DNA of 64,000 nucleotides from the NCBI GenBank assembly GCA_000002445.1, contig CH464491.1:4128001-4192000 (forward strand). The letters are read 5' to 3'. Shown here piece by piece: positions 3,601 through 23,170 of this stretch. Source of the DNA: Trypanosoma brucei (lineage: Eukaryota). Numbering within the stretch: position 1 is the stretch's first letter; each line of letters starts with the position of its first letter. The notes under the pieces were generated by a model. That model ran no database searches. It was not told where the DNA came from and saw only the letters and a list, made by a program, of their open reading frames with translations. Both the position numbers and the translations under genes were made by a program.

Positions 3601-5763
3601 CTTGCCTTGTACTTCATCGGAGCCTTTTGTGCGGATGAAGTTCCGGATTTTATCGAGCACGTTGTCCACTTGCAGCAAATCACGTACAAATCTGTAGTTG
3701 GACCCCCCGACCCCAGCTTCCTGCGCCACGGACAGCAAGTGCTCATTCAGGTAATATGGGCTGATACATGTCCCAGCAACCCCCACGTGGGCTATCGTGT
3801 CCACAGTCATGAAACTGCTACCGGCGGAGGTCCCAAGGGGTCCGCACATACATAATAACTTCCAGAAGTTACTGCTCTTACGCACTGTTTTTGGATCCAT
3901 CCGAGCAAACTGAAGAAGGACGTGAAAAGCGATGGCACTAAGTCGTACATCAATCCAGAATGGAACCTTCTCCTGTGCTGCATCCCTAAGCACAAGCATG
4001 AATTCCGTCAACACCACATCGTCGGTAATCATCTCTACCGTTGCACATCTGCTCACGTCATCAATTTCCAACGCGAGCGTGGTGACTACCCCGTGAAGGA
4101 TCCGAAGGATCATTGTTGCTCCATGTACGCTGGGCTTTTCCACCACACAATGCAGCATACGTCGCATGGCCTCCTTGCGCTCAACCGCACCCTGCACGAC
4201 GTCACAAAAGAGGAGTGCATAAAACTGCTCAAGCTGATCCACCAAAGGTCCAGCTGTTCCCACGAGCGGCGACACCTCCCTCCCCTCGAAGCCCTTAGGG
4301 CCAAAGAAAGATGTAAGGTGGGAGGCACGGTCAACCTCCGCGCACAGTCTCGTGTCAAGGGAAACTTCCAATACGCTGGTGAATAAAAATTTTCTGGGGA
4401 ACAACTTTAGCAGTGGGGCGGATAGAGACCACAGGCGCATGAGCCCGATTTTGCGGAATGCCACATTTGGGTGAACCAACATTTTTAAAAAGAGTAGGGT
4501 CACCCACAGGGGGTGAATACCTCCCTTGAGCTGCAGGAGTAATATCTCATCCCCAGTTTCCCCAAAATCCGCCCACACGCTAGCGTCAGCTGTCACCTTT
4601 TCCACCAAAGAATCCAGTTTGGGAAGTATCGGTTGAATAATGTGCATTCCATAATCATTAGTTACCTCCAGAATAAGAAACAACATTTCCCACAGGTTGT
4701 TACTCACCGTTGGCACCCACACAAAGAGTGGATGGTATATTCTGCTGGCATCCCACTTCTCGCGCAACTCCTGGTCACGGGTCATTGCCACTATACGCTT
4801 GAGAAGATACTCAGCTCGCGACTGCATGTTCACGCGGTTCTCCACACTGCCACTGCCCGTACAGGCTCCATAAATTGCAGCGTGAATCGTGTCCCACAGA
4901 TTTGTTGAGCATCGGTAGTCCCGCTGCCTGTCACCATCCACGCATGAAAACAAGCATTCAAACAATGCTGCAATTAGCACAACAGTGTCTATCTGACTGC
5001 CCGCATTACACGTTAGCAGTGAACAAATACGGGAATGACCATCTTCCAAGAGAGCCTTGTCACCTAACGACAGCAGCGGAATCAGCACGCGGCGACAAAG
5101 GTACGAGCCCTGTGCGGATTCTTCACGCATATAAGGGATCGCATTAAGCGCGTAATCGATCACCATGCTTCTGATCGTGATACCACGCTCCTCTTCGCTA
5201 CGAATCTTTGCTTCATCGACCTCGTCATCGTTCATCCCCCTCGGGCCCCGCTTGCATCTCTCGTTCAGAGTGACCAGTGCAGTGGCAAACTGGGCCAATA
5301 GTTCGATAGCGCACTCCTTAGGTACCGTCAAATTGGTGTCAACCCCGCGAAGTGAATCCCCTGCCGCCACCAGTATTGCAATACTGCAACCCGAGAGGGT
5401 CACTTGTACAATGGAATAAAAAACGGCAGCAAGCACAGACTTTGGGTATGGTGGATGTGCCGTTAGGATGGACACCATCTCCACTTCCCACTTTGTAGTT
5501 TCTTCCGTACCACATCCACCGCCGCCAGAGGCGTCACAAAGGATCAGTGCACCACTGCAATATATATGCGCATCTGTACACATCTCCTTCTCGCTTTCGA
5601 GTAGTGCCAAAATCCGCAAAAACTGAAGCCGCCGCTCCCGGCCGCACATCGCCATCGCCAACTCCTTTGCTACGCCGAAGGCTTTGGAAGGATGAGGCTC
5701 ATTTTCTCCCTTACAAAAGCAACGAACCAACGCAACGACAACATCCTCCACCTTCGCTTCCAT
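613..5763 (-). CDS. Large HEAT/ARM-like repeat protein with a C-terminal SpoU/TrmH-type RNA 2'-O-ribose methyltransferase domain (TARBP1-like architecture), about 1,716 aa.
   Basis: The 1,767-aa ORF (613..5916) begins with a hydrophobic poly-Cys/Leu stretch that looks like read-through of untranslated sequence. The first plausible ATG is at 5761-5763 (MEAKVEDVV...). The C-terminal ~150 aa (encoded near 613-1100) carry the SPOUT motifs AVIVLGAEGHGIPAQLL ... IPQYGLIRSLNVHVTGSIVMYEY, which match the TrmH motifs LVLGNEGxGL and IPMxGxxxSLNVSVAAGIxLYE. The long N-terminal region is alpha-helical and repeat-like. Confidence 0.65.
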   Translation of the reverse strand: MEAKVEDVVVALVRCFCKGENEPHPSKAFGVAKELAMAMCGRERRLQFLRILALLESEKEMCTDAHIYCSGALILCDASGGGGCGTEETTKWEVEMVSILTAHPPYPKSVLAAVFYSIVQVTLSGCSIAILVAAGDSLRGVDTNLTVPKECAIELLAQFATALVTLNERCKRGPRGMNDDEVDEAKIRSEEERGITIRSMVIDYALNAIPYMREESAQGSYLCRRVLIPLLSLGDKALLEDGHSRICSLLTCNAGSQIDTVVLIAALFECLFSCVDGDRQRDYRCSTNLWDTIHAAIYGACTGSGSVENRVNMQSRAEYLLKRIVAMTRDQELREKWDASRIYHPLFVWVPTVSNNLWEMLFLILEVTNDYGMHIIQPILPKLDSLVEKVTADASVWADFGETGDEILLLQLKGGIHPLWVTLLFLKMLVHPNVAFRKIGLMRLWSLSAPLLKLFPRKFLFTSVLEVSLDTRLCAEVDRASHLTSFFGPKGFEGREVSPLVGTAGPLVDQLEQFYALLFCDVVQGAVERKEAMRRMLHCVVEKPSVHGATMILRILHGVVTTLALEIDDVSRCATVEMITDDVVLTEFMLVLRDAAQEKVPFWIDVRLSAIAFHVLLQFARMDPKTVRKSSNFWKLLCMCGPLGTSAGSSFMTVDTIAHVGVAGTCISPYYLNEHLLSVAQEAGVGGSNYRFVRDLLQVDNVLDKIRNFIRTKGSDEVQGKQLMFLLGALDSMGGEDRQVLADVARELAEMVLSFGRRPYSEAEDIFVALVAFVEFHHSVGSQPCTRYFPLSVILDVEDAVSGLAISSLRQAFHSIKEVTTLGDLSAEAWALQSTSRWDAVVAAVVTISQIAVSYDHSSASVVLRSGKRISDFVELLSVVAEGFPAIVPEDESRRVAQHFAHIVLARNASRALKGMLCGLVGTGDNISINDKRRDEDKTFLRCLSNNDRARCIRTLMRCPALRLSACDIPCSLTDLSWSNVLAQYYGCVYDVIFLLCSCMDQSAVPELVHELEEYGLDQVERCWESNLTSIYGILSWVASAPASPKGDSSVNIDRRSIINAMFGHLGVAGGRDHCRMTVLAFDALRCGVECEEELVKTHIYRTLLDEAQSERAGYIAAVTLSTEVLRDPESNWLRLKELLLHVAVLHNPSREEEGAEVLVAALEPLMLKAWPESLRVQYPPTVRLSYVGRAMAISAILCCCFKKEEWAADVTLQLLEWNNSNPAVNHEPCMPNSKAHRSRMRLWQLLCALVPMVRSPTVQRDLLHVVVMKCLTLTNMGSVRRLMELFALQLLQRQPQLYWIIDNAMANYQLRPQVIGSYVFISAHVILRELRGEVEPVDGLMDTLLHRLFQQSTSHQHMLRLVCHIGLNFIREASVARGIVFSANEESIFDYVANAPEHVKFRVQHAEQLFFDVREACTPRQLFCIQRREGNNILLVSIPAVAFERMRFIDREVACLTGVLTPVDQIRVQVLMQHFEASRVLEPLKEFPYIPHTKSTALFCVDYTPEAVAVLTADTHISEGMSSVTGYENVQRKATPWWSSQLYDELHPRALKTERQPVIVIASLLQNPVNVAGLFRCGEVFAVEKVVVSDAAVLEHPHFVAAARSSDLWLPWSAVQVKALSGYLSSLRQDGYTLVGIEQTAGSVPMSSYQFPKRAVIVLGAEGHGIPAQLLTVLDVCVEIPQYGLIRSLNVHVTGSIVMYEYTRQHRMGGAPESS

Positions 5764-6675
5764 TCGGAGATGGGAACCTAGTAACACACCACGGATACCC
5801 AAAAGTACGAAAGAAAAAAGAAGAGGATACAATAAATGAAACAGCAAAAACAAACAACAACAACACTTTTTCTTTAGATAGAAAACCAACAACAGGACCC
5901 GCAACAGTATCGTCAAAATCTTGTTTGCCTGCAGCCAAAAGGAGGGGAAAAAACGTTACTGCGAGTAAGAATTGAACTGACGAGACAGACAATAGAGAGA
6001 GCGACACAAAGTTCACGTTATAAGTAACAGCAGGGGTTACGAAAACATGAACAATATCACAAAAGAAATTAAACTAGAAAAAAGAAGCACATTCACGTAT
6101 TTTGGAAGAGCGTTCATTAACCGGTATCACCGACGGCAGTAGTAATAATTACACAACACGTATATATATATGAAGTACAAAGGGTATCAAGAGAAGCACA
6201 GCAACAGCTACATGAAAGCGGACACACACAGCATAACCACTTCACTCTCTTCGGTCAGCAAACCAACAAAAACCATAACATGGGTAAGTCTTGGATTAGA
6301 AACCGAATTAATCCGGATACGAAAAAGGGGGTCCAAAAAGATAGAAGAGTGTGGCGATGTAGAGAAAAAGACAAAGTGAGTTGTGTGACTCACATGACAA
6401 TAGGGAAAGCGGAAAACAGATCCGTATCCCCTCACCCAACTAATACAGCAGCTTCCCACTACTCAAATTAATGAAGGCGCTGACGCAATAAGGATGTGGA
6501 TCTGAATTATACCTCAGTGGGTGGATGCAGCAACAAGTTGCTATGATGTCATGGCAAGAAAGTGCCTAACTACGGGGAGGTACACAAACAAAGTAAACAC
6601 GGCAGCGCACATGGAGGCATTCCAAACAGTAATCCAAAACACAACATATATAGATCTTGTGGGAGGGGAATGTGC

Positions 6676-6699
6676 TATATATATATATATATATATATA
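6676..6699. repeat. (TA)12 microsatellite in the 3' spacer of AAT copy 1.
   Basis: Direct read: ctatatatatatatatatatatatatacg. The equivalent tract in copy 2 is (TA)14. Confidence 0.9.
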
Positions 6700-7779
6700 C
6701 GTAACCACTAATATCAAATCGAGAAGAATTAGGAAAGAGGGAAACGTGAGCAACAAATAAACCATCTGTCAGAAAACGTAACGCATCAGTGTACACAAAC
6801 ACACACAACTCTGGGGTAGTAATGTGCCACACTCCAGAAAACAAGAATCAAACTGAAGCATTTGATCATCAGTTTCACCACACACGAAGGTAAGGGGATA
6901 TATGAAACCAGATTCGCAGGGCTCCTCACAAGTACCACACTTCATCGCGCTGCCCAGTCAGACCACCAAACACCACGTGCGATGTGTGCAGACAAAAGGG
7001 AAGTTTGTGTTGGATGCAGGAAAAGGTATAGTGGCAAAGGGATTTAAAGGACAAAAAGAAGGGATAAAATAGAAAACACTATACAACACGTAATGCAACG
7101 TCTCAACCATAGGGATTAAACACCTAAAGGCTTACCCACCCACAACCCCAACCGCAGAAAATCCAATAATAATGGTGAGGAGGAGGGAAACAGCCTCTCT
7201 AAACAGCGTACCATAGAGACATTTGCGAAAAGGAAAGGGGTATTTTATTTTTGCACAAGGAAAAAAAAGAGCGAGGGAATTAACAAAAATTCAAAAAAAG
7301 GAAAAAAATAGATAGAAAATAACACAAAACCGTCAGTATCATAAGGGAAAATGTTAAAAAACAATCGTTCGCATACAAAGAACAGTAAAATAACAACAAG
7401 AAATGCTGAATTGCCCTTCCATACATTTATATATCTATGGAATTCTACGGCAAGCATCTTTAGACACTCATGAAAACTGTTATAGACATGGCTATGCAGC
7501 GTCCGCGGGGGAGAACGGCATCCAACAAACCATATAATGCAGTTTTCTTACTTCATCCACTAATATTACCAAGTTGCATCATTGATTCATAGGCCTCCCA
7601 TCATCAGTGGCATTATGTGAGACATGCATTTTCAACCCCATATCGCTGTCGCAAATGCCTAAATTCACACAAGAAAGGGGATGAACGAGAAAAATAAAAA
7701 AAACAAGAGGGAAAACAAAGAAGGAAAAGAAAAGAAAAGAGGGTATACTTCAATTAGGTCACGGGTTCTGACACATCCG

Positions 7780-9168
7780 CTACTTCTTAACCTCGTCGTA
7801 AATGGTTAATGCCGTACCAAACACAACAGCGAATACGCCGACAATGAGCAACTGGTATGTGACAGCGTAGTTGAACCACCCAACCTCTTTCAGAGAGAAG
7901 TTCCCCGCATACATGTAATACAGTGCTGGTAGAATAAAAGCAAGGAAGCCACCACAGAAACTTCCAAGAAAGTTGAAGACAACTTCAATACTGGGTAGCA
8001 CAAGTCCCAGTACGAGAGCGAGGGTAGCCAAGACACCACTCACTACGAGGTTCTTCCAGCTGTCAACATCAGACGTCTTCCCCCATCCCAATACATAATA
8101 AATCGCATCACGAGATGGCTGGATGCAAATAGCGAATCCTACGCATATCTTGATAGCGATGCCAACATACCCGATGGCCATCATCACATCATCTTGTGGT
8201 TTGTACAATTTGAGTACGGAGCCTTCTAGATCATTCCCGAAATCAAGATAACCGAAGATACCAGACAAGAAATACAGGAGACCAACCATCGACATCGCCA
8301 CACTACTGTCGCGCGTCATTCGCCGTGGGGTGGGTCCCTTCATCTCTTCATACACCTCAAAACAATTCACCTGACATATGAAGGCAAATACAAACAGTGT
8401 GAAGCCATTCAGAATCCCCCATCCATCACCGACGAGTCGAATGTCCGATCCTATCCCGTCTTTCAAGCCATTCATCGCAGCGTGTACAATCATGCATATC
8501 ACAAAGAAAACAATGAAGAAAACACCCACAGCAGAAGCATATCGAAGTGAGTTAATCTCCTTGGGAAGCGAGAGTGGTAACATGGCAACCAACCAAACTA
8601 CACCAACAATAACGTTCTTTCCCATCGATGTCCTCAGGAATCCAGTTGTTGAAGGCTGATTCAAAAGTGGAGAGAGTAAGTCACCCACTGATATCACGTA
8701 CCCAACGCAGGTTCCAAAGCAGAAAACAAACATCAAGAAAGCCGTAAAGTAGTCTGCACCGCGGCCAAGCAACCCACACGCCATCTCCTCATACGAACGG
8801 AATCCAGTTTTGTCCCTAGTGATCACGAGTATGCGGATAGAGTACACTGTGGTGAAGCAGATGTACACCAACATTAACGTGGCAATTATTATGCCAGAGT
8901 TGAGGAAACCAGAAGGCAGCATCACAATTCCAGCACCAAGGGTAGCACTCTCCAGGTTAAACACATTTGACGCCATTCCACCATATGGAACAATTCCCTT
9001 GATGGGGTCAAATACCGTGTTCAGGCAGCCCCTGTGCTCCCCGTCAGCAGCTGCTGTAGATTTATCGCTGTCTGGAGGTAATTCCAACACATTACCCTGA
9101 GACAAGCTTGGTATTAAGGTTGGGTGTTCGTCCTCGTTTATTATTGGCTCTGTTGCCCTGGGTGACAT
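7780..9168 (-). CDS. Amino acid transporter (AAT; transmembrane amino acid transporter / Aa_trans family), copy 1, 462 aa.
   Basis: ATG at 9166-9168. The 462-aa protein has about 11 hydrophobic helices and conserved AAT-family stretches (GGMASNVFNLESATLGAGIVMLPSGF..., FICQVNCFEVYEEMK, LPSIEVVFNFLGSFCGGFLAFILPALYYM). It is paralogous to the AAT genes at 33365 and 35955. Confidence 0.85.
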   Translation of the reverse strand: MSPRATEPIINEDEHPTLIPSLSQGNVLELPPDSDKSTAAADGEHRGCLNTVFDPIKGIVPYGGMASNVFNLESATLGAGIVMLPSGFLNSGIIIATLMLVYICFTTVYSIRILVITRDKTGFRSYEEMACGLLGRGADYFTAFLMFVFCFGTCVGYVISVGDLLSPLLNQPSTTGFLRTSMGKNVIVGVVWLVAMLPLSLPKEINSLRYASAVGVFFIVFFVICMIVHAAMNGLKDGIGSDIRLVGDGWGILNGFTLFVFAFICQVNCFEVYEEMKGPTPRRMTRDSSVAMSMVGLLYFLSGIFGYLDFGNDLEGSVLKLYKPQDDVMMAIGYVGIAIKICVGFAICIQPSRDAIYYVLGWGKTSDVDSWKNLVVSGVLATLALVLGLVLPSIEVVFNFLGSFCGGFLAFILPALYYMYAGNFSLKEVGWFNYAVTYQLLIVGVFAVVFGTALTIYDEVKK

Positions 9169-9250
9169 CTGCAGTTAACGTGAGTACTTAACTTTACAAT
9201 ATGCGCAGTAAGTGAGGAAAAGTAAGAAAATAAGAAAAAAAGAAAAGGAG
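9169..9250 (-). promoter_or_regulatory. Putative trans-splicing signal for AAT copy 1: a polypyrimidine tract on the coding (minus) strand followed by AG dinucleotides immediately upstream of the ATG.
   Basis: Plus strand 9211-9250 is purine-only (aaagtaagaaaataagaaaaaaagaaaaggag), which is a polyY tract on the minus strand. CTGCAG lies directly 5' of the ATG. This follows the kinetoplastid SL-addition convention. The actual splice site is not determinable from sequence alone. Confidence 0.35.
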
Positions 9251-9410
9251 TCAAACGCCCTGGCGTAACACAACAGTATATGACACAAACAATCAGGGAG
9301 GCGTAACCACAACATAAACACACAACACACAGATGCGAAAATGAGAGTAAGGACATAGAACTCAAACAGGAGCATTATCCACGCATCTTCACGCAACGCT
9401 TCCCACAACC

Positions 9411-11675
9411 TCAGTTATTGTCATCAAGTATATCCTTCGCAAGCCGCCACCCCCACGGGTTCTCTGCACACGGGTATGGTGGGGCGAGGAGGAGACCCTG
9501 CCGCTTCCGTTCCGCATCCTCCGCAACGTGACGAAGTGCCTGTTGTACCGCAGACACTCCCGTACCCCAAAATAGCAGTGGTTTGTTAGGTACACTCCAT
9601 GCTTGACCTAGAAGTTCCGGTTGAAACGTGCGTCGCCGGCGCTCGAACGGGTTAGCAGCTTTCCGCTCATCATCTTCCCGCAATTCACGCCATGCTTGCA
9701 CATCTGCCGCAGACACGTACGACATGTTTTCTGGTATTGGTAACAGCGGTGGTCGTTCCGCCTCTTCCATGTTTTGGAGCCACTCCATTTCCGTTTTCAC
9801 ATCGTTCTCAATTATACCCAGGATACGCATTGTCATCTTTTCCTTGCGTTGTTGGTGAAGGGCACGTAACTCCTCCGCAATACTTTGTTCGCCACCTTTG
9901 AGGCTCCTTATGATTCGATTAAGCATACGTGCTTTCGTTGCCGCCGCGCTCTGCACGTGGCGGTCCCGGATAACCCTAAGAGTTATTTCACGGATCTTTT
10001 CAAAGAGGGATGATGCCTCCGCATCGTCGTACACGTTAAACATTCCTGGTCCAACCTCACAATGATCTCCCTCGGTTTTGGCGGACTGGATGGCTGATCC
10101 CTCCCCCTCAGGAGGTGACGTCATGTTGCATTGGGCTGTTTTCTTTTCCATTATCTTTTCGTACAACTCCCGACATTGTGCTGCTTCCGGCATATTTTCC
10201 ACGCCGTCGAATAGCTTGGCATTTTCCCTGACGCACCTAATCTGCCGCTCCATCTGCATATGTGCAAGATACCGGAGGCGCTTTTCGTGCAACGATTCCA
10301 GACGTTTATCTTTGGGATCCATAAACATCTTCTCAACTAGGTTGACCACCTTTTGCGTTTTTATGCGGGCGACCTCGGCTTCGGCTTCGCAAGCAAATGC
10401 ATGACCTGTACCCGCAGTTTCTTTAATGTGCTTTACCGTCGATTCATCCCGTTGTTGGATTTGGAGTAGCTTTTGGTACTCTGGCGTGCTTTGCAGTGGG
10501 AGGAGCAATGCCCTTTCGTACCAGCGCTTGGCCCAATCCACGGGGTGTGCTCCCTCTTTAGATGAATAGTACTGGACAACGTCTAATGTGCTTAGCGTGG
10601 CGGCATCCATAGAGTATAGTTTGCGCAGACTTTCAATATACGCACTAAGATTCTCATCCTTTCCCGTGTGTTTGAAGCCACTGCCGAGTGTCAGCCGTGC
10701 AAAAACTTCGCAAAACTGTAGGAACTCCTCCTGGGCTTGCATCTCCGTCAGAACAGTTTCAGCGACGGCGATATCGAGGCCCACAGCGCGGTTAATAACG
10801 CGCTTAAGTCTCTCCATGCGCGACATCTTTCTGCTCCCACCCTTACGCCCCTTCACACCGCCCCTTTGCTGCGCCATCCTTCGAAGTCTTTCGATTTCTG
10901 CCAACTGATGATGCCGTTCCTCCAGTTTAACTTGCCGTAACCGCATCTCGGCATACTTGAACATATTGGCAAGGTGCTTCTGCGTTTCCAAATTGAGTTC
11001 CGCGGTGAGATTCGCCAGCATCCGTCTCTCAGCCTCCGTGCTGACACCTTCACGCTTTTTGTGAACGTAATCTGCAAACACTTGTTTCACGTGTGTCATC
11101 GCATTTTCCAGCCGGTGAACGTTTTCGGGATCGAAAAGGGAGGCATCAGCAGCATCGTATACGGCTTGCGACACACCGAGGGAGTACTGTGGATTCTTGA
11201 GGTGCACCGGCAAACCCAGTTTGACACGCTCGTACTCGTCTCGCACCGTTTTCCGTGGATCTAACTCAAAAACGTCAGCCATTGTGGTTTCGAAATACCT
11301 TCGGCGCTGCTGCTCTGTTGTTTCTGTGGGATGCTCCTGAAGCACTTTGTGCATGTACTTCGCAAAGGCATGCTTTTCGTCAACTGGCACACCTTCCCAT
11401 TCGGCGTCCGTCATGTGCTTTGCGCGCTCCGCCACCTCGCAACCAACACGACGCGTTGCCTCCTTTGAACGCTCCCCCTTGCTCCGTGGTGCTCTCGCTG
11501 AAGGTGAGCCGCCAAGCTCGGCATACAGCGCCTGTCGCTCGAAGTTTTCGCCCTGAGCCTTCTGAGCGGCCACCATTCGACGAACTTTCGCACGTTGACT
11601 ACGGGGATTTAGCAGCGAACTTCCAGGGGCTGGAACAAAGGCAGAGCGTCGGAAAAAAGGTATTGTGTGCCGCAT
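9411..11675 (-). CDS. Hypothetical charged, probably coiled-coil, protein of 754 aa.
   Basis: ATG at 11673-11675. Long ORF with coding-like GC3 and a K/E/R-rich helical composition. No family motif recognised. Its 3' terminal 210 bp fall inside duplication copy 1. Confidence 0.6.
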   Translation of the reverse strand: MRHTIPFFRRSAFVPAPGSSLLNPRSQRAKVRRMVAAQKAQGENFERQALYAELGGSPSARAPRSKGERSKEATRRVGCEVAERAKHMTDAEWEGVPVDEKHAFAKYMHKVLQEHPTETTEQQRRRYFETTMADVFELDPRKTVRDEYERVKLGLPVHLKNPQYSLGVSQAVYDAADASLFDPENVHRLENAMTHVKQVFADYVHKKREGVSTEAERRMLANLTAELNLETQKHLANMFKYAEMRLRQVKLEERHHQLAEIERLRRMAQQRGGVKGRKGGSRKMSRMERLKRVINRAVGLDIAVAETVLTEMQAQEEFLQFCEVFARLTLGSGFKHTGKDENLSAYIESLRKLYSMDAATLSTLDVVQYYSSKEGAHPVDWAKRWYERALLLPLQSTPEYQKLLQIQQRDESTVKHIKETAGTGHAFACEAEAEVARIKTQKVVNLVEKMFMDPKDKRLESLHEKRLRYLAHMQMERQIRCVRENAKLFDGVENMPEAAQCRELYEKIMEKKTAQCNMTSPPEGEGSAIQSAKTEGDHCEVGPGMFNVYDDAEASSLFEKIREITLRVIRDRHVQSAAATKARMLNRIIRSLKGGEQSIAEELRALHQQRKEKMTMRILGIIENDVKTEMEWLQNMEEAERPPLLPIPENMSYVSAADVQAWRELREDDERKAANPFERRRRTFQPELLGQAWSVPNKPLLFWGTGVSAVQQALRHVAEDAERKRQGLLLAPPYPCAENPWGWRLAKDILDDNN

Positions 11676-13230
11676 ATTAGTAGAATTCTAAAAAAAAAAA
11701 CGTACGCCTTTCGAATCGTTAAATATTGGGCTCCTCCACGTAGGGGTGAGCCTGAGAAAACAAGCAGATGGGTCCGATAAATACTCTTACAATAGAGCTG
11801 TTACAAAGGTTTTATGTATTTTTCTCCCTTGAATGATCTTCTTCCCACCATTAAGTGATAAAAGAAAAGAAAGCAGGGGAGATGAGAGTCATAGTGAAGT
11901 TAAAGAAGTGCCATAAACCCCTATTAAAGGACGTCACTAAAAGGAACTGAATAGCAGGTACATCCTGATGCAAACAGGAAACACATCGCACTTGTTTACG
12001 ATGTGGAAGCACAAAATAATGGGGGTGAAAATGTACGGGAAACCACATCTATACACAAAGAATTTGTTCCAGGCACCTGTACGAAATATTTTCATAAACC
12101 CTGCGGCATTCCCAAAATGAAAGTAGTGCCTTAAGCCGAAAGCGGCATCCAAGGCGGCAAACCAAAACTGAAAAGGGGAAAAACAGCGCCTCAACGAAGC
12201 AACCATCTATCCCCATGGGAACAAGCCAACAAACTTTATCCAGGTGGTTCGGGGAGTTCTGTAGCTTCGCTACAAAACACAACGTCTGCCGGTGGCACCA
12301 GGCGCCCCACAATAACTTCCAGTGCCTTTTCAAGCGCAAGCAGGCCCTCGCCCTGCCCAGAAGTTGAACACCAACCTGCCACGTCCGGTAAAATGTAAGG
12401 TATAGGAGCATCATCCGAATGTTCAAAATCATTAAAGGAGGCATCACCGAGACATACAAATAGCGGGTTATCATCCTTCCTAACAACTTTATCGTCCCCC
12501 TGCAAGGGACAATTTACAGAGCCGTTGATATGCAGTGGCGTGGAGCAAAACATATCAACAGCAAATCGCCGCTAAAACTAAAACAAAATAGAACAAAAGC
12601 GCAAGAAGACGATAGGACACATATGCCAATACGTAAAATCAGTCACTCAATAAAAGAAACAGCCTAAAATATTAACCGGTATCACCGACGGCAGTAGTAA
12701 TAATTACACAACACGTATATATATATGAAGTACAAAGGGTATCAAGAGAAGCACAGCAACAGCTACATGAAAGCGGACACACACAGCATAACCACTTCAC
12801 TCTCTTCGGTCAGCAAACCAACAAAAACCATAACATGGGTAAGTCTTGGATTAGAAACCGAATTAATCCGGATACGAAAAAGGGGGTCCAAAAAGATAGA
12901 AGAGTGTGGCGATGTAGAGAAAAAGACAAAGTGAGTTGTGTGACTCACATGACAATAGGGAAAGCGGAAAACAGATCCGTATCCCCTCACCCAACTAATA
13001 CAGCAGCTTCCCACTACTCAAATTAATGAAGGCGCTGACGCAATAAGGATGTGGATCTGAATTATACCTCAGTGGGTGGATGCAGCAACAAGTTGCTATG
13101 ATGTCATGGCAAGAAAGTGCCTAACTACGGGGAGGTACACAAACAAAGTAAACACGGCAGCGCACATGGAGGCATTCCAAACAGTAATCCAAAACACAAC
13201 ATATATAGATCTTGTGGGAGGGGAATGTGC

Positions 13231-13258
13231 TATATATATATATATATATATATATATA
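13231..13258. repeat. (TA)14 microsatellite, the copy-2 counterpart of 6676-6699.
   Basis: Direct read: gctatatatatatatatatatatatatatatacg. Confidence 0.9.
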
Positions 13259-14376
13259 CGTAACCACTAATATCAAATCGAGAAGAATTAGGAAAGAGGG
13301 AAACGTGAGCAACAAATAAACCATCTGTCAGAAAACGTAACGCATCAGTGTACACAAACACACACAACTCTGGGGTAGTAATGTGCCACACTCCAGAAAA
13401 CAAGAATCAAACTGAAGCATTTGATCATCAGTTTCACCACACACGAAGGTAAGGGGATATATGAAACCAGATTCGCAGGGCTCCTCACAAGTACCACACT
13501 TCATCGCGCTGCCCAGTCAGACCACCAAACACCACGTGCGATGTGTGCAGACAAAAGGGAAGTTTGTGTTGGATGCAGGAAAAGGTATAGTGGCAAAGGG
13601 ATTTAAAGGACAAAAAGAAGGGATAAAATAGAAAACACTATACAACACGTAATGCAACGTCTCAACCATAGGGATTAAACACCTAAAGGCTTACCCACCC
13701 ACAACCCCAACCGCAGAAAATCCAATAATAATGGTGAGGAGGAGGGAAACAGCCTCTCTAAACAGCGTACCATAGAGACATTTGCGAAAAGGAAATATTA
13801 TTAAGCAAAAAAGCGTAAAAAGGGAGGCGAGGCAAGGAATCACAAAATACTAACTTAATTACTACAGGCAGATAAATAAGGGTAAAAAAAAACAACTATT
13901 GCCGCTACTCAGTATCATAGTCAACAAAAGTTTTTTCGTTGTGCCTCTATAACGCGATAACTAATATTTTTAAAAAACCATAAATTAATTCGTAGAGATT
14001 TCCTCAAACTCTTACATTGCGATAAAGAGATTATCCTTTTTTTTTTTACAGATATTCATCATTGACGTTAAAAAAGTTGTAGATATGGCTATGCAGCGTC
14101 CGCGGGGGAGAGCGGCATCCAACAAACCATATAATGCAGTTTTCTTACTTCATCCACTAATATTACCAAGTTGCATCATTGATTCATAGGCCTCCCATCA
14201 TCAGTGGCATTATGTGAGACATGCATTTTCAACCCCATATCGCTGTCGCAAATGCCTAAATTCACACAAGAAAGGGGATGAACGAGAAGAATAAAAAAAA
14301 CAAGAGGGAAAACAAAGAAGGAAAAGAAAAGAAAAGAGGGTATACTTCAATTAGGTCACGGGTTCTGACACATCCG

Positions 14377-15765
14377 CTACTTCTTAACCTCGTCGTAAAT
14401 GGTTAATGCCGTACCAAACACAACAGCGAATACGCCGACAATGAGCAACTGGTATGTGACAGCGTAGTTGAACCACCCAACCTCTTTCAGAGAGAAGTTC
14501 CCCGCATACATGTAATACAGTGCTGGTAGAATAAAAGCAAGGAAGCCACCACAGAAACTTCCAAGAAAGTTGAAGACAACTTCAATACTGGGTAGCACAA
14601 GTCCCAGTACGAGAGCGAGGGTAGCCAAGACACCACTCACTACGAGGTTCTTCCAGCTGTCAACATCAGACGTCTTCCCCCATCCCAATACATAATAAAT
14701 CGCATCACGAGATGGCTGGATGCAAATAGCGAACCCCCCACAAATCTTGATAGCGATGCCAACATACCCGATGGCCATCATCACATCATCTTGTGGTTTG
14801 TACAATTTGAGTACGGAGCCTTCTAGATCATTCCCGAAATCAAGATAACCGAAGATACCAGACAAGAAATACAGGAGACCAACCATCGACATCGCCACAC
14901 TACTGTCGCGCGTCATTCGCCGTGGGGTGGGTCCCTTCATCTCTTCATACACCTCAAAACAATTCACCTGACATATGAAGGCAAATACAAACAGTGTGAA
15001 GCCATTCAGAATCCCCCATCCATCACCGACGAGTCGAATGTCCGATCCTATCCCGTCTTTCAAGCCATTCATCGCAGCGTGTACAATCATGCATATCACA
15101 AAGAAAACAATGAAGAAAACACCCACAGCAGAAGCATATCGAAGTGAGTTAATCTCCTTGGGAAGCGAGAGTGGTAACATGGCAACCAACCAAACTACAC
15201 CAACAATAACGTTCTTTCCCATCGATGTCCTCAGGAATCCAGTTGTTGAAGGCTGATTCAAAAGTGGAGAGAGTAAGTCACCCACTGATATCACGTACCC
15301 AACGCAGGTTCCAAAGCAGAAAACAAACATCAAGAAAGCCGTAAAGTAGTCTGCACCGCGGCCAAGCAACCCACACGCCATCTCCTCATACGAACGGAAT
15401 CCAGTTTTGTCCCTAGTGATCACGAGTATGCGGATAGAGTACACTGTGGTGAAGCAGATGTACACCAACATTAACGTGGCAATTATTATGCCAGAGTTGA
15501 GGAAACCAGAAGGCAGCATCACAATTCCAGCACCAAGGGTAGCACTCTCCAGGTTAAACACATTTGACGCCATTCCACCAGACGGAACAACTCCCTTGAT
15601 GGGGTCAAATACCGTGTTCAGGCAGCCCCTGTGCTCCCCGTCAGCAGCTGCTGTAGATTTATCGCTGTCTGGAGGTAATTCCAACACATTACCCTGAGAC
15701 AAGCTTGGTATTAAGGTTGGGTGTTCGTCCTCGTTTATTATTGGCTCTGTTGCCCTGGGTGACAT
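14377..15765 (-). CDS. Amino acid transporter (AAT family), copy 2, 462 aa.
   Basis: ATG at 15763-15765. It differs from copy 1 at only three residues in the translation: KGIVPYGG vs KGVVPSGG (two substitutions) and KICVGFAICIQ vs KICGGFAICIQ (one). Confidence 0.85.
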   Translation of the reverse strand: MSPRATEPIINEDEHPTLIPSLSQGNVLELPPDSDKSTAAADGEHRGCLNTVFDPIKGVVPSGGMASNVFNLESATLGAGIVMLPSGFLNSGIIIATLMLVYICFTTVYSIRILVITRDKTGFRSYEEMACGLLGRGADYFTAFLMFVFCFGTCVGYVISVGDLLSPLLNQPSTTGFLRTSMGKNVIVGVVWLVAMLPLSLPKEINSLRYASAVGVFFIVFFVICMIVHAAMNGLKDGIGSDIRLVGDGWGILNGFTLFVFAFICQVNCFEVYEEMKGPTPRRMTRDSSVAMSMVGLLYFLSGIFGYLDFGNDLEGSVLKLYKPQDDVMMAIGYVGIAIKICGGFAICIQPSRDAIYYVLGWGKTSDVDSWKNLVVSGVLATLALVLGLVLPSIEVVFNFLGSFCGGFLAFILPALYYMYAGNFSLKEVGWFNYAVTYQLLIVGVFAVVFGTALTIYDEVKK

Positions 15766-15847
15766 CTGCAGTTAACGTGAGTACTTAACTTTACAATATG
15801 CGCAGTAAGTGAGGAAAAGTAAGAAAATAAGAAAAAAAGAAAAGGAG
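15766..15847 (-). promoter_or_regulatory. Putative trans-splicing signal for AAT copy 2, identical to the copy-1 element.
   Basis: Identical sequence to 9169-9250 within the duplicated unit. Confidence 0.35.
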
Positions 15848-16007
15848 TCAAACGCCCTGGCGTAACACAACAGTATATGACACAAACAATCAGGGAGGCG
15901 TAACCACAACATAAACACACAACACACAGATGCGAAAATGAGAGTAAGGACATAGAACTCAAACAGGAGCATTATCCACGCATCTTCACGCAACGCTTCC
16001 CACAACC

Positions 16008-16217
16008 TCAGTTATTGTCATCAAGTATATCCTTCGCAAGCCGCCACCCCCACGGGTTCTCTGCACACGGGTATGGTGGGGCGAGGAGGAGACCCTGCCG
16101 CTTCCGTTCCGCATCCTCCGCAACGTGACGAAGTGCCTGTTGTACCGCAGACACTCCCGTACCCCAAAATAGCAGTGGTTTGTTAGGTACACTCCATGCT
16201 TGACCTAGAAGTTCCGG
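16008..16217 (-). pseudogene. Truncated 3' fragment (last ~70 codons) of the 754-aa gene, left at the duplication junction.
   Basis: The 71-aa ORF 16008..16223 (..PELLGQAWSVPNKPLLFWGTGVSAVQQALRHVAEDAERKRQGLLLAPPYPCAENPWGWRLAKDILDDNN) is identical to the C-terminus of the 9411..11675 product. The upstream 2 kb of the gene is absent. Confidence 0.75.
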
Positions 16218-17054
16218 TTGCAAATTGTAGATAAAGTTTTCGTGGGTAGGGTTGCGCTAACGACTGTTATCCGTATGTTGTTTCAATGAGTATTGTTATC
16301 GCCTTGCAAATGTTCTTTTTCAAGATTTGGAGGAGAAGGAAGCTCTTCGCCTTTTTTCATCGAATCATTCTTTATAACACGAACGTTACGTTGATCCATT
16401 GCGTTTCTGTTCTTTAAATGTTTGAAATCTGAAACTTTTGTCGCATATCAATTGGAACCTATTCTTCTCGTTTGTGTGTGTGTATTTATTAAAAGCTGTC
16501 TCACTTACCTGCTTTTTCGCGTCGTGTTACCTTCCCCCACACTTTAATCACTTTTTCAAACAGCTGACTTTGATTGTTACACTTTTTCCGCAGCGTAACG
16601 CAAGGAAATGCGATAAATCTTTCCCATAACAAAATGTATTTGTTGCACAAAACGACATTTCAGTGAGATGCTACCCCGATCACATTTGTAATGCAGGTAC
16701 ATCGTGTTTTAGTTTCACTCAACCAGGGTTCCACTTGGCAATGGTCACCCGAAACCATTCTGTATATTACATAATCCGCACCGCATGAATACGAAGAGAG
16801 CATTTGTACGTGCCCAAGGGATGTTTAGTGATTTTACTATCCGTGAAAGGGGTAAAAAGGGATTGATTGAGTCCTCTTTGTTCCCTCCACCCCTTTCGGC
16901 AAATGTCAGACTTTTCCTTTCCTTTGCTCCCCCCCCCCAAGGCACACACGTGATTCGTTCAACACATTTATTGGCTAATACACATGCACCGTGCGAGGAT
17001 AGGCGTACGGGTCTAGGGTGAAGAGCACACAAATACACCCAACCATCGGATCCT

Positions 17055-18665: not shown

Positions 18666-19259
18666 AAAAAAAAATCCTAAAGAACAAAAAGTACCAGAGA
18701 GGAGCCAGTGCGAGCTTAGAAGCGAAGGCGCTGGAAGAACCAACGGTTGTTACCGGCGTTGTAGCGGGCCTGAAACAGACGTTTCACCAACTGCTTCGAC
18801 TTCGCCTTCTTCGATGCGTCGGAAACATTGATGCGACCGCGCAGTTCACGCGAGAGGTCCATGTTGTATCGGGTTGGTAGAAAGTGCTTGTGATTCACAA
18901 CGCGGAGGAACACACCAACTTGCGAGCGGCGTGTGATGGAGCGCTTGCTCATCCCGCGCACAACCTTTCTTGGGTATTTTTTAATTCCGGCGAGCAACGA
19001 ATGACCGTACGGGCGCTCCTTGTTCCTCGTATCCGTGTTCTGCACGATCACAGCCTTCTTGCCGGCATACCGGCCCGAAGTCATGATCACAACCTTGCCG
19101 GGCTTCAGAAACTTCATCACTGCCAGCACACTAATCCAGTGGGAAATGACAAGAAATAAAAGGACAGCAGATGGGAGATAGCAAGGGTAATAAAGAGTGA
19201 GTATACAAACAGGTTTCAAAGGCATTGGAACGGTGCCGGTGGAAAGACCATTCGGGAAA
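18666..19259. repeat. RPL27 repeat unit, copy 1 (~590 bp: CDS, ~145 bp upstream and ~47 bp downstream).
   Basis: Near-identical to 22579-23170, with one mismatch near the end. Confidence 0.9.
18716..19117 (-). CDS. RPL27: 60S ribosomal protein L27 (eL27), 133 aa, copy 1.
   Basis: The ORF track prefix is read-through. The ATG at 19115-19117 gives MKFLKPGKVVIMTSGRYAGKKAVIVQNTDTRNKERPYGHSLLAGIKKYPRKVVRGMSKRS..., which is the classic eL27 N-terminus (KOW motif GKVV...GRYAGKKAVIV). Confidence 0.9.
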   Translation of the reverse strand: MKFLKPGKVVIMTSGRYAGKKAVIVQNTDTRNKERPYGHSLLAGIKKYPRKVVRGMSKRSITRRSQVGVFLRVVNHKHFLPTRYNMDLSRELRGRINVSDASKKAKSKQLVKRLFQARYNAGNNRWFFQRLRF

Positions 19260-22293: not shown

Positions 22294-22578
22294 GGGGTCC
22301 GTAACTGAAAGAACGGGAGGATACAAACAAAAAAACAGGGTGAAGGGTACCCAAAACCCACACCACACACCAATACCCCCTCGCCCTTCTTCGACCTGAT
22401 ACAGACGCGGCAAGAAGGGAGAGCAAAGAAAAAAGAAAAAGACAAAGGAGGAGTTCAAACATGTTGGTATACTAACGAACCACAAAGCAGACCTGAGGTT
22501 GCAGAAAAATACACCCCAACACCGGGATACAGGAGGCATCACCAACGAAAATCCGCTTTACTGGGAAATAGAACAAGA

Positions 22579-23170
22579 AAAAAAATCCTAAAGAACAAAA
22601 AGTACCAGAGAGGAGCCAGTGCGAGCTTAGAAGCGAAGGCGCTGGAAGAACCAACGGTTGTTACCGGCGTTGTAGCGGGCCTGAAACAGACGTTTCACCA
22701 ACTGCTTCGACTTCGCCTTCTTCGATGCGTCGGAAACATTGATGCGACCGCGCAGTTCACGCGAGAGGTCCATGTTGTATCGGGTTGGTAGAAAGTGCTT
22801 GTGATTCACAACGCGGAGGAACACACCAACTTGCGAGCGGCGTGTGATGGAGCGCTTGCTCATCCCGCGCACAACCTTTCTTGGGTATTTTTTAATTCCG
22901 GCGAGCAACGAATGACCGTACGGGCGCTCCTTGTTCCTCGTATCCGTGTTCTGCACGATCACAGCCTTCTTGCCGGCATACCGGCCCGAAGTCATGATCA
23001 CAACCTTGCCGGGCTTCAGAAACTTCATCACTGCCAGCACACTAATCCAGTGGGAAATGACAAGAAATAAAAGGACAGCAGATGGGAGATAGCAAGGGTA
23101 ATAAAGAGTGAGTATACAAACAGGTTTCAAAGGCATTGGAACGGTGCCGGTGGAAAAACCATTCGGGAAA
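22579..23170. repeat. RPL27 repeat unit, copy 2.
   Basis: See copy 1. Confidence 0.9.
22627..23028 (-). CDS. RPL27: 60S ribosomal protein L27 (eL27), 133 aa, copy 2.
   Basis: ATG at 23026-23028. The protein is identical to copy 1. Confidence 0.9.
   Translation of the reverse strand: MKFLKPGKVVIMTSGRYAGKKAVIVQNTDTRNKERPYGHSLLAGIKKYPRKVVRGMSKRSITRRSQVGVFLRVVNHKHFLPTRYNMDLSRELRGRINVSDASKKAKSKQLVKRLFQARYNAGNNRWFFQRLRF

What the first reader, a model, noticed from the sequence alone, without database searches (positions are those of the whole stretch)
7237..7483. Copy-specific replacement of ~250-290 bp in the 3' spacer of otherwise identical AAT copies
Within the near-identical duplication, 7237-7483 (copy 1) and 13796-14080 (copy 2) are completely unrelated in sequence, while homology is perfect on both sides (...gcgaaaaggaaa | ... 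| agaYatggctatgcagcgtccgcggggg...). The block lies ~300-550 nt 3' of the AAT stop codons, inside what should be the 3' UTR or polyadenylation region. In trypanosomes 3' UTRs carry nearly all gene-specific regulation, so two otherwise identical transporter genes would gain different mRNA stability or translational control. The copy-2 segment is AT-rich with a T11 run, and the copy-1 segment is A-rich.
Basis: partly seen in the sequence, partly recalled or inferred. Interest (0 to 1): 0.55.

Follow-up and report, generated by a model that had tools for sequence, protein, structure and literature searches.

The report
Unconverted island between duplicated transporter genes
The two almost identical lysine-transporter genes (AAT16) of Trypanosoma brucei really do differ by a ~250-base stretch downstream of the coding region, but it is best read as a patch that gene conversion between the copies has not homogenised, an ordinary by-product of duplicate-gene evolution whose regulatory role is untested.

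Summary
The window is T. brucei TREU927 chromosome 11. The two genes are the known lysine-transporter pair TbAAT16 (Tb927.11.15840 and Tb927.11.15860), both on the minus strand. The copies share 2,154 nt (99.3%) and 1,121 nt (no substitutions). Between these lies a non-matching block: 7237-7472 (236 nt) against 13796-14069 (274 nt), 308 nt onwards past each stop codon.

Both blocks sit at the same places in T. b. gambiense DAL972 and T. b. equiperdum IVM-t1, so this is not an assembly artefact.

T. vivax, T. cruzi, T. theileri, T. conorhini, T. melophagium and L. major have one AAT here. T. congolense has two, and their homology also ends about 200 nt after the stop.

In both flanks, strain-specific substitutions are shared by both paralogues. 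That is the signature of ongoing gene conversion. The block is what conversion has not homogenised.

The block evolves about 3.7 times faster than other unique intergenic DNA. It has no unusual RNA fold and no other copy in the window.

Whether it lies in the mature 3' UTR, or alters expression, could not be tested. The pattern is a known kind of feature in T. brucei duplicates.

In passing: the duplicated downstream segment carries a roughly 60-nt hairpin conserved from Leishmania to Trypanosoma and absent from Rfam.

The parts
7237..7472 (-). Island b1: the copy-1-specific block (236 nt), 308-543 nt downstream of the stop codon of AAT16 copy 1. Its 3' half is pyrimidine-rich on the sense strand.
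   Evidence: Present in place in gambiense (97.5%) and, as a mosaic, in IVM-t1.
13796..14069 (-). Island b2: the copy-2-specific block (274 nt), 308-581 nt downstream of the stop codon of AAT16 copy 2.
   Evidence: Present in place in gambiense and IVM-t1 (about 95-96%). Those two genomes carry a 27-nt extra segment bounded by the 12-nt direct repeat GCTTTTTTGCTT.
7473..9626 (-). Homology tract R, copy 1. It holds the last 72 codons of KPAC1, the KPAC1-AAT spacer, the AAT16 CDS and the first 307 nt after the stop.
   Evidence: 99.30% to 14070-16223; the 15 mismatches are mapped.
14070..16223 (-). Homology tract R, copy 2.
6116..7236 (-). Homology tract Lf, copy 1: 1.1 kb downstream of the island, with no substitutions against copy 2.
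12671..13795 (-). Homology tract Lf, copy 2.
7780..9168 (-). AAT16 copy 1 CDS (Tb927.11.15840, XP_829641; lysine transporter). This is the ancestral position, downstream of KPAC1.
   Evidence: PMC5207785; synteny.
14377..15765 (-). AAT16 copy 2 CDS (Tb927.11.15860, XP_829643). This is the derived position, between the VASt gene and KPAC1.
16008..16223 (-). Relic of the 3' end of KPAC1 (72 codons, 97% identical to the real gene), upstream of AAT16 copy 2.
9411..11675 (-). KPAC1 (kinetoplast poly(A) polymerase complex 1 subunit, XP_829642), the gene between the two AAT16 copies.
6243..6308 (-). Conserved hairpin E, the copy inside Lf of copy 1.
12798..12863 (-). Conserved hairpin E, the copy inside Lf of copy 2, about 1.1 kb upstream of the KPAC1 ATG.
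7671..7743 (-). A 73-nt polypyrimidine tract 37-109 nt after the stop of copy 1. The twin in copy 2 is at 14268-14340. It is a possible processing signal upstream of the island.

Best explanation
The block is a neutral, unhomogenised island between two stretches that interlocus gene conversion keeps alike.

AAT16 was duplicated before T. brucei and T. congolense split. A copy carrying a piece of the KPAC1 3' end was placed between the VASt gene and KPAC1.

Since then the two copies have been repeatedly homogenised by conversion over two tracts:
- the CDS tract (R), which ends about 200-300 nt past the stop codon;
- in T. brucei, a second 1.1-kb tract (Lf), which carries an old conserved hairpin.

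The 236/274 nt in between has not been converted. It is either the place where the original duplicated segment ended, so that the two sides were never homologous. Or it is homologous DNA that has diverged to saturation.

It drifts fast through substitutions and microhomology indels, and its 5' edge is ragged where conversion tracts run out.

Shown: the duplication history, the conversion signature and the rapid drift. Inferred: that the island persists for lack of conversion across it rather than through selection. The island's origin (never homologous, or diverged in place) is left open.
For: 1. The island is real and old. Both blocks sit at the same positions in TREU927, gambiense DAL972 and equiperdum IVM-t1.

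2. Copy 2 is derived, and the duplication predates the T. brucei/T. congolense split. T. vivax, T. cruzi, T. theileri, T. conorhini, T. melophagium and L. major have VASt-KPAC1-AAT with a single AAT, and no AAT relic upstream of KPAC1 (tested in T. vivax, T. cruzi and T. theileri). T. congolense has an AAT 3' end upstream of KPAC1 as well.

3. Evolution is concerted. Paralogues are 98-99% identical within T. brucei and within T. congolense, but about 80% identical between the species.

4. In R, at least 10 sites have both TREU927 copies carrying one base and both gambiense and IVM-t1 copies carrying another. Seven paralogue-specific sites persist in small patches.

5. In Lf there is no fixed paralogue difference. 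Strain-specific bases and TA-repeat lengths are shared by both copies.

6. In T. congolense the paralogue homology also stops 198 nt after the stop codon.

7. The 5' edge is ragged and strain-dependent. In IVM-t1, copy-2-type sequence runs about 25 nt further.

8. There is no sign of constraint. Divergence between TREU927 and gambiense is 2.6% in the islands against 0.7% in unique spacer (Fisher p = 0.0006). There is a 27-nt indel between 12-nt direct repeats. Fold z-scores are -0.66 and +1.02.

9. Mosaic conversion that reaches into UTRs, and unrelated UTR types among near-identical copies, are documented for T. brucei arrays (PMC1855330).
Against: Both flanks are homogenised on the time scale of subspecies divergence. 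A conversion spanning the island has 2.1 kb and 1.1 kb of homology available to it. Yet both island types persist in three genomes, which could instead reflect selection for keeping them.

The origin of the island is unresolved. Residual b1-b2 similarity is marginal in TREU927 and absent in gambiense.

The IVM-t1 mosaic (z 6-7 to b2) and the OVI contig with b2 at the copy-1 position could be assembly or polishing artefacts. They could equally be real conversions.

Fast divergence does not exclude short functional motifs.
Confidence: 0.68

Rival explanations
1. The island is a selected, copy-specific 3' UTR module. It gives the two otherwise identical lysine-transporter mRNAs different stability or translation, and selection prevents gene conversion from erasing either version.
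For: - The island starts 308 nt after the stop, within the typical 3' UTR range (median 388 nt; PMC2936537).
- Polypyrimidine tracts inside each block, followed by a shared AGAGAG, would put the poly(A) site inside the block.
- Both versions persist in three genomes although both flanks are being homogenised.
- A UA(U)6 (RBP10-type) motif is present in b1 of TREU927 and gambiense but in no b2. AUUUA motifs occur only in b2.
- Precedent within the same gene family: Tb427.08.4700 of the AAT5 array has a distinct 3' UTR (PMC5207785).
Against: - The island evolves about 3.7 times faster than other unique spacer, and by indels.
- It has no unusual structure.
- It has no conserved counterpart in T. 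congolense.
- The UA(U)6 motif is lost in the IVM-t1 version.
- Ribosome profiling lists both genes with the same behaviour, although reads cannot separate them (PMC4210626).
- There are no data placing the island in the mature mRNA.
Confidence: 0.2
2. One of the two blocks is foreign. It would be a retroposon or other dispersed-repeat fragment, or filler DNA captured during microhomology-mediated repair, that replaced the original sequence in one copy after the duplication.
For: - The 3' boundary is razor-sharp in all strains.
- b2 has an A11 run on the sense strand.
- T. brucei repairs breaks by microhomology-mediated joining (my own knowledge), and a microhomology indel is seen inside b2.
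Against: - Neither block has another copy in the 64-kb window or in any fetched locus; only low-complexity matches appear.
- No flanking target-site duplication is visible at the boundaries.
- The two blocks have nearly the same length (236 and 274 nt).
- In T. congolense the paralogues also lose homology at about the same distance from the stop. This argues for an old boundary rather than a recent insertion.
- The whole T. brucei genome could not be searched.
Confidence: 0.1
3. The block is an assembly artefact in the TREU927 reference.
For: Repeats of 1-2 kb are prone to mis-joins. The short-read T. equiperdum OVI contig shows b2 at the copy-1 position and ends inside the repeat.
Against: The same two blocks are at the same two positions in the gambiense DAL972 assembly and the PacBio IVM-t1 assembly. 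A Logan contig from another strain breaks exactly at the island edge, as expected at a real fork.
Confidence: 0.02

Closest known systems
Concerted evolution of T. brucei tandem and dispersed gene duplicates by gene conversion (Jackson 2007, BMC Evol Biol 7:54, PMC1855330)
   Same: The coding sequences are near-identical, and conversion tracts extend into or lie wholly within non-coding flanks. Breakpoints are discrete. Some copies carry UTR types that do not align with the others. Copies separated by an unrelated gene occur.
   Different: Here the unconverted piece is a short internal island bracketed by two homogenised tracts, rather than a terminal copy with a wholly remodelled flank. Despite being separated by KPAC1, the copies have not escaped conversion.
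Copy-specific 3' UTRs in duplicated trypanosome genes that confer stage-specific expression (PGKB/PGKC and THT1/THT2, from my own knowledge; AAT5 Tb427.08.4700 with a distinct 3' UTR, PMC5207785)
   Same: The duplicated genes have nearly identical proteins, and their downstream sequences differ. This is the standard route to differential regulation in an organism without gene-specific promoters.
   Different: In those cases the UTRs differ from near the stop codon and differential expression has been shown. Here the first 307 nt are shared, only 236/274 nt differ, homology then resumes for 1.1 kb, and no expression difference is known.
TbAAT16 lysine-transporter locus (Mathieu et al. 2017, PMC5207785; locus numbering of Jackson 2007, PMC1810246)
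   Same: It is the same two genes (Tb927.11.15840 and Tb927.11.15860). They are reported as 99% identical, with 3 amino-acid differences. The UTR similarity was drawn in that paper's S1 Fig.
   Different: The text I could read does not describe the island, the duplication history or the conversion signature. The two transcripts were explicitly not distinguished.

Membership tests
AAAP-family amino acid transporter, TbAAT16 locus | An Aa_trans (PF01490) domain across the protein, and identity to the annotated T. brucei genes | tested here: met
   PF01490, E = 1.5e-58. Exact matches to XP_829641 and XP_829643 of TREU927. Locus named in PMC5207785.
Interlocus gene conversion / concerted evolution | Paralogues within a species are more alike than orthologues between species, although the duplication predates the split | tested here: met
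   T. brucei copies are 99% identical and T. congolense copies 98.2%, against about 80% (protein) between the species. The upstream copy is at the same syntenic place in both.
Interlocus gene conversion / concerted evolution | Lineage-specific substitutions shared by both paralogues of one genome | tested here: met
   At least 10 such sites in R. In Lf, several such sites plus shared TA-repeat lengths.
Interlocus gene conversion / concerted evolution | A mosaic of converted tracts and persisting paralogue-specific patches with discrete breakpoints | tested here: met
   Fixed patches at 8137-8146 and 8984-8994, plus the island. The 5' edge is ragged and differs in IVM-t1.
Interlocus gene conversion / concerted evolution | Direct observation of a conversion event (pedigree or experimental) | not testable with these tools
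   This needs clonal lines or population long-read data.
Copy-specific regulatory 3' UTR (PGKB/PGKC-like) | The divergent sequence is part of the mature mRNA | not testable with these tools
   No poly(A) or splice-site data could be retrieved for these genes. Sequence-based prediction is ambiguous.
Copy-specific regulatory 3' UTR (PGKB/PGKC-like) | The copies differ in expression, stability or translation | not testable with these tools
   Published qPCR and ribosome profiling did not separate the copies.
Copy-specific regulatory 3' UTR (PGKB/PGKC-like) | Sequence constraint, or a conserved known motif, in the divergent part | tested here: not met
   2.6% against 0.7% divergence, p = 0.0006. 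UA(U)6 is in b1 of two genomes only. Fold z-scores are -0.66 and +1.02. No match in T. congolense.
Retroposon or dispersed-repeat insertion (RIME/ingi-type) | Other copies of the sequence, and target-site duplication at the boundaries | tested here: inconclusive
   No other copy in the 64-kb window or in the 11 loci, and no flanking direct repeat. The rest of the T. brucei genome could not be searched.
Rfam RNA families (for the blocks and the hairpin E) | A match to any covariance model | tested here: not met
   No hit at E <= 1 over 5500-17000 on either strand.

The most novel reading that the evidence does not exclude
The island is kept unconverted by selection, because b1 and b2 give the two copies of the essential lysine transporter different post-transcriptional control. 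For example, RBP10-type repression of copy 1 might operate in one life-cycle stage, or the poly(A) site choice might differ. If so, AAT16 would be a minimal natural 'UTR-cassette' pair in which only about 250 nt decide copy-specific expression. Separately, the conserved hairpin E in the adjoining tract could be an undescribed kinetoplastid RNA element.
Probability: 0.15. Interest if true: 0.55.

Novelty: new member of a known kind. Interest (0 to 1): 0.25.

Why it matters
If the neutral reading is right, the block is mainly of practical use. It is the only sizeable sequence that tells Tb927.11.15840 from Tb927.11.15860. It therefore offers copy-specific probes, primers and read mapping for an essential transporter pair that published work could not separate.

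It is also a clean small example of how conversion tracts and their boundaries shape trypanosome duplicates, and of a duplication whose true age (before the T. brucei/T. congolense split) is hidden by homogenisation.

If the regulatory reading is right, it would give a compact, swappable element for studying 3' UTR control.

Tried and rejected
- Poly(A) and splice-site data. I searched the supplements of Kolev 2010 (only an abundance entry was found), Siegel 2010 (none held), Jensen 2014 and Nilsson 2010. No coordinates for these genes were available.
- The Logan contig L002 as transcript evidence. Its 5' end is not preceded by AG, so it is not a splice site, and the type of run is unknown. 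I rejected it as evidence.
- Rfam over the whole region: no hit.
- RNA folding of b1 and b2: not different from shuffles.
- Orthology of b1 and b2 in T. congolense: non-coding DNA is saturated between the species apart from hairpin E, so the ancestral state of the island cannot be read.
- AAT or KPAC1 relics in the VASt-KPAC1 spacers of T. vivax, T. cruzi and T. theileri: none. The upstream copy is therefore specific to the brucei/congolense clade.
- Residual b1-b2 homology: marginal in TREU927, nil in gambiense. It is not enough to decide between divergence in place and sequences that were never homologous.
- The T. equiperdum OVI contig with b2 at the copy-1 position. It comes from a short-read assembly, the contig ends in the repeat, only one AAT16 is annotated, and the CDS is chimeric. 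It cannot be separated from a collapsed or mis-threaded repeat.
- A 70-codon ORF on the sense strand of b1. It is rich in F and L from U-rich DNA, and I regard it as spurious.
- Hairpin E as an H/ACA-like snoRNA. It has a single hairpin followed by AGA, but its internal loops (2x2 and 1x1) are too small for a pseudouridylation pocket. I did not file it there.

Full report
**What the window is**

The ORFs at 7780-9168 and 14377-15765 (minus strand, 462 aa each, 3 amino-acid differences) carry the Aa_trans domain. They match XP_829641 and XP_829643 of Trypanosoma brucei brucei TREU927 exactly. These are Tb927.11.15840 and Tb927.11.15860, the TbAAT16 lysine transporters, which are essential in bloodstream forms (PMC5207785).

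The 754-aa gene between them (9411-11675) is KPAC1. All genes in this part of the window are on the minus strand. 'Downstream of the stop codon' therefore means towards lower coordinates.

**Checking the observation**

A self-comparison of the window shows two homology tracts:
- R: 7473-9626 = 14070-16223, 2,154 nt, 15 mismatches.
- Lf: 6116-7236 = 12671-13795, 1,121 nt, no substitutions, only a 4-nt TA-repeat length difference.

Between them are 236 nt in copy 1 (b1, 7237-7472) and 274 nt in copy 2 (b2, 13796-14069). The boundary at 7236/7237 is sharp. The one at 7472/7473 is ragged, with mismatches at 7477, 7478, 7482, 7487 and 7515.

The blocks start 308 nt after each stop codon. The composition claims are correct.

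A forced alignment of b1 and b2 gives about 48% identity. Against dinucleotide shuffles the similarity is marginal in TREU927 (z 2.1-2.7) and absent in the gambiense pair. Neither block recurs anywhere else in the window or in the fetched loci.

**It is not an artefact, and it is old**

Loci fetched through exact protein look-ups show both blocks at the same two positions in T. b. gambiense DAL972 (b1 97.5%, b2 about 95%). The same holds in the PacBio assembly of T. b. equiperdum IVM-t1.

The short-read T. equiperdum OVI contig has b2 (100% identical to TREU927 b2) at the copy-1 position. However:
- the contig ends in the repeat;
- only one AAT16 is annotated in that assembly;
- its CDS is a copy-1/copy-2 chimera.

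I cannot separate a real conversion from a collapsed repeat there.

**History of the duplication**

T. vivax, T. cruzi, T. theileri, T. conorhini, T. melophagium and Leishmania major all have the order VASt gene, KPAC1, a single AAT, then the TARBP1-like methyltransferase. No AAT relic lies upstream of KPAC1 in the three of these I tested, T. vivax, T. cruzi and T. theileri.

Copy 1 is therefore in the ancestral position and copy 2 is derived. Copy 2 still drags a 72-codon relic of the KPAC1 3' end (16008-16223, 97% identical).

T. congolense also has an AAT 3' end upstream of KPAC1, so the duplication predates the brucei/congolense split. Yet the copies are 98-99% identical within each species and about 80% identical between species. 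That requires concerted evolution.

In T. congolense the homology between the paralogues stops 198 nt after the stop codon. This is close to where the first T. brucei tract ends.

**Direct signature of conversion**

In tract R, at least ten sites carry one base in both TREU927 copies and another base in both copies of gambiense and IVM-t1. Seven sites are paralogue-specific in all three genomes and cluster in two small patches (8137-8146 and 8984-8994).

In tract Lf there is no fixed paralogue-specific difference. Strain-specific bases and TA-repeat lengths are shared by both copies.

Both flanks have therefore been homogenised since the subspecies diverged. The island, with the same limits in three genomes, has not.

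In IVM-t1, copy-2-type sequence runs about 25 nt further into the copy-1 island. The rest of that island is a b1/b2 mosaic whose similarity to b2 is highly significant (z 6-7, 0 of 500 shuffles). This is either short-tract conversion inside the island or a polishing artefact of that assembly.

**How the island evolves**

Between TREU927 and gambiense the two islands differ at 13 of 507 aligned sites (2.6%). Other unique non-coding DNA of the locus differs at 21 of 2,970 sites (0.7%), and Lf at about 0.3% (Fisher p = 0.0006).

b2 of gambiense and IVM-t1 has 27 extra nt bounded by a 12-nt direct repeat. That is a slippage or microhomology indel.

Neither block folds better than shuffled sequence (z -0.66 and +1.02). 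There is no Rfam hit. There is no alignable counterpart in T. congolense, where only one short element of the whole spacer is conserved.

**Best explanation**

The block is the unhomogenised island between two conversion domains of an old duplication. Two origins remain open:
- The original duplicated segment ended about 200-300 nt after the stop, as in T. congolense. In that case b1 and b2 were never homologous, and Lf is a separate, older repeat.
- The whole stretch was duplicated and the island diverged in place to saturation.

Either way it is a by-product of duplication plus patchy conversion. This pattern is already described for T. brucei gene arrays, including unrelated UTR types among near-identical copies (PMC1855330).

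It cannot be judged with these tools. General figures (median 3' UTR 388 nt; poly(A) site a median 142 nt upstream of the next splice site; PMC2936537) and a scan for polypyrimidine tracts allow three outcomes. Processing could occur upstream of the island, inside it, or about 1 kb beyond it.

Gene-specific tables were not retrievable. The published qPCR and ribosome profiling did not separate the copies.

Two points favour the idea:
- Both versions persist although conversion acts on both sides.
- b1 of TREU927 and gambiense has a UA(U)6 motif that b2 lacks.

Against it are the fast drift, the indels, the possible swaps in two 'equiperdum' assemblies and the absence of any conserved feature. 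I give it about 0.2.

**A by-product worth noting**

The only part of the spacer conserved between species is a roughly 60-nt element inside Lf (window 6243-6308 and 12798-12863, minus strand). It folds as a hairpin: UUCGGUU..UAA.CCAAGA / UGUUGG.UUG..GACCGAA, followed by an invariant GAGA.

A covariance model built from it finds one or two copies per locus in T. brucei, T. congolense, T. cruzi, T. conorhini, T. theileri, T. melophagium and L. major. It finds none in T. vivax.

Across 8 distinct sequences, 94% of cells pair and 5 pairs show compensatory changes. No shuffle reaches the observed covariation. It has no Rfam match, and I found no mention of its sequence in the literature held.

Its position varies:
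- In L. major, T. congolense and T. brucei copy 2 it lies about 950-1,120 nt upstream of KPAC1.
- In the T. cruzi and T. theileri clades it lies about 90-270 nt upstream of an extra gene between AAT and the methyltransferase.
- T. theileri and T. brucei have it in both spacers.

This shared element may have provided the homology that seeded the second conversion tract. That is inference.

**Verdict**

The feature is real, and the known T. brucei AAT16 locus now has its structure and history worked out. The mechanism is ordinary, so interest is low to moderate. Its practical value is as the copy-specific tag of the two genes.

Noticed in passing
window 6243-6308 (-) and 12798-12863 (-); also L005 1761-1826, L007 16735-16800, L008 7104-7169 and 16456-16521, L009 16453-16518, L010 16515-16580, L011 8972-9055: A roughly 60-nt hairpin followed by an invariant GAGA is the only spacer sequence conserved from Leishmania major to Trypanosoma. 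Across 8 distinct sequences, 94% of cells pair, 5 pairs show compensatory changes and covariation exceeds all 500 shuffles. It has no Rfam match, no literature match and no copy in T. vivax. Depending on the species it sits upstream of KPAC1, downstream of AAT16, or both.
   Followed up: yes
window 8137-8146 and 8984-8994 (inside the AAT16 CDS): The paralogue-specific differences in the coding region are not scattered. They form two tight patches (5 differences in 10 nt and 3 in 11 nt) that are fixed in TREU927, gambiense and IVM-t1. They cause the amino-acid differences, including residue 343, which Mathieu et al. mutated. They are micro-islands that resist, or are selected against, conversion.
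   Followed up: partly
window 16008-16223 (-): A 72-codon relic of the KPAC1 3' end (97% identical to the real gene at 9411-9626) lies upstream of AAT16 copy 2. It marks the upstream end of the duplicated and converted segment.
   Followed up: yes
window 12239-12553 (-): A 105-codon ORF upstream of KPAC1 is called as a gene in several assemblies. ORFs of similar size occupy the same place in T. vivax, T. cruzi, T. theileri, T. conorhini and T. melophagium. It has no Pfam match and diverges fast between TREU927 and gambiense (7/315 = 2.2%). Its coding status is doubtful.
   Followed up: partly
L007 16870-18360, L008 16606-17595, L009 16730-18100, L010 16665-18077; partial paralogue L008 7254-7628: T. 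cruzi, T. conorhini, T. theileri and T. melophagium have an extra conserved hypothetical gene (about 330-496 aa as called, no Pfam domain) between AAT16 and the TARBP1-like gene. It has no tblastn trace in the T. brucei window. T. theileri has a second, partial copy in the VASt-KPAC1 spacer (85-92% identical DNA).
   Followed up: partly
window 18667-19259 and 22578-23170; 33309-35238 and 35899-37825: There are two further duplications in the window. The RPL27 genes are 99.8% identical over 593 nt and flank a 1,038-codon ORF. A pair of roughly 495-codon ORFs is 89% identical over 1.9 kb. I did not examine either.
   Followed up: no
window 7671-7743 (-) and 14268-14340 (-): A 73-nt polypyrimidine tract starts 37 nt after each AAT16 stop codon. 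This is near the upper end of the tract lengths reported for T. brucei splice signals (7-79 nt, PMC2936537). It could act as a U-rich UTR element or as an internal processing signal.
   Followed up: partly
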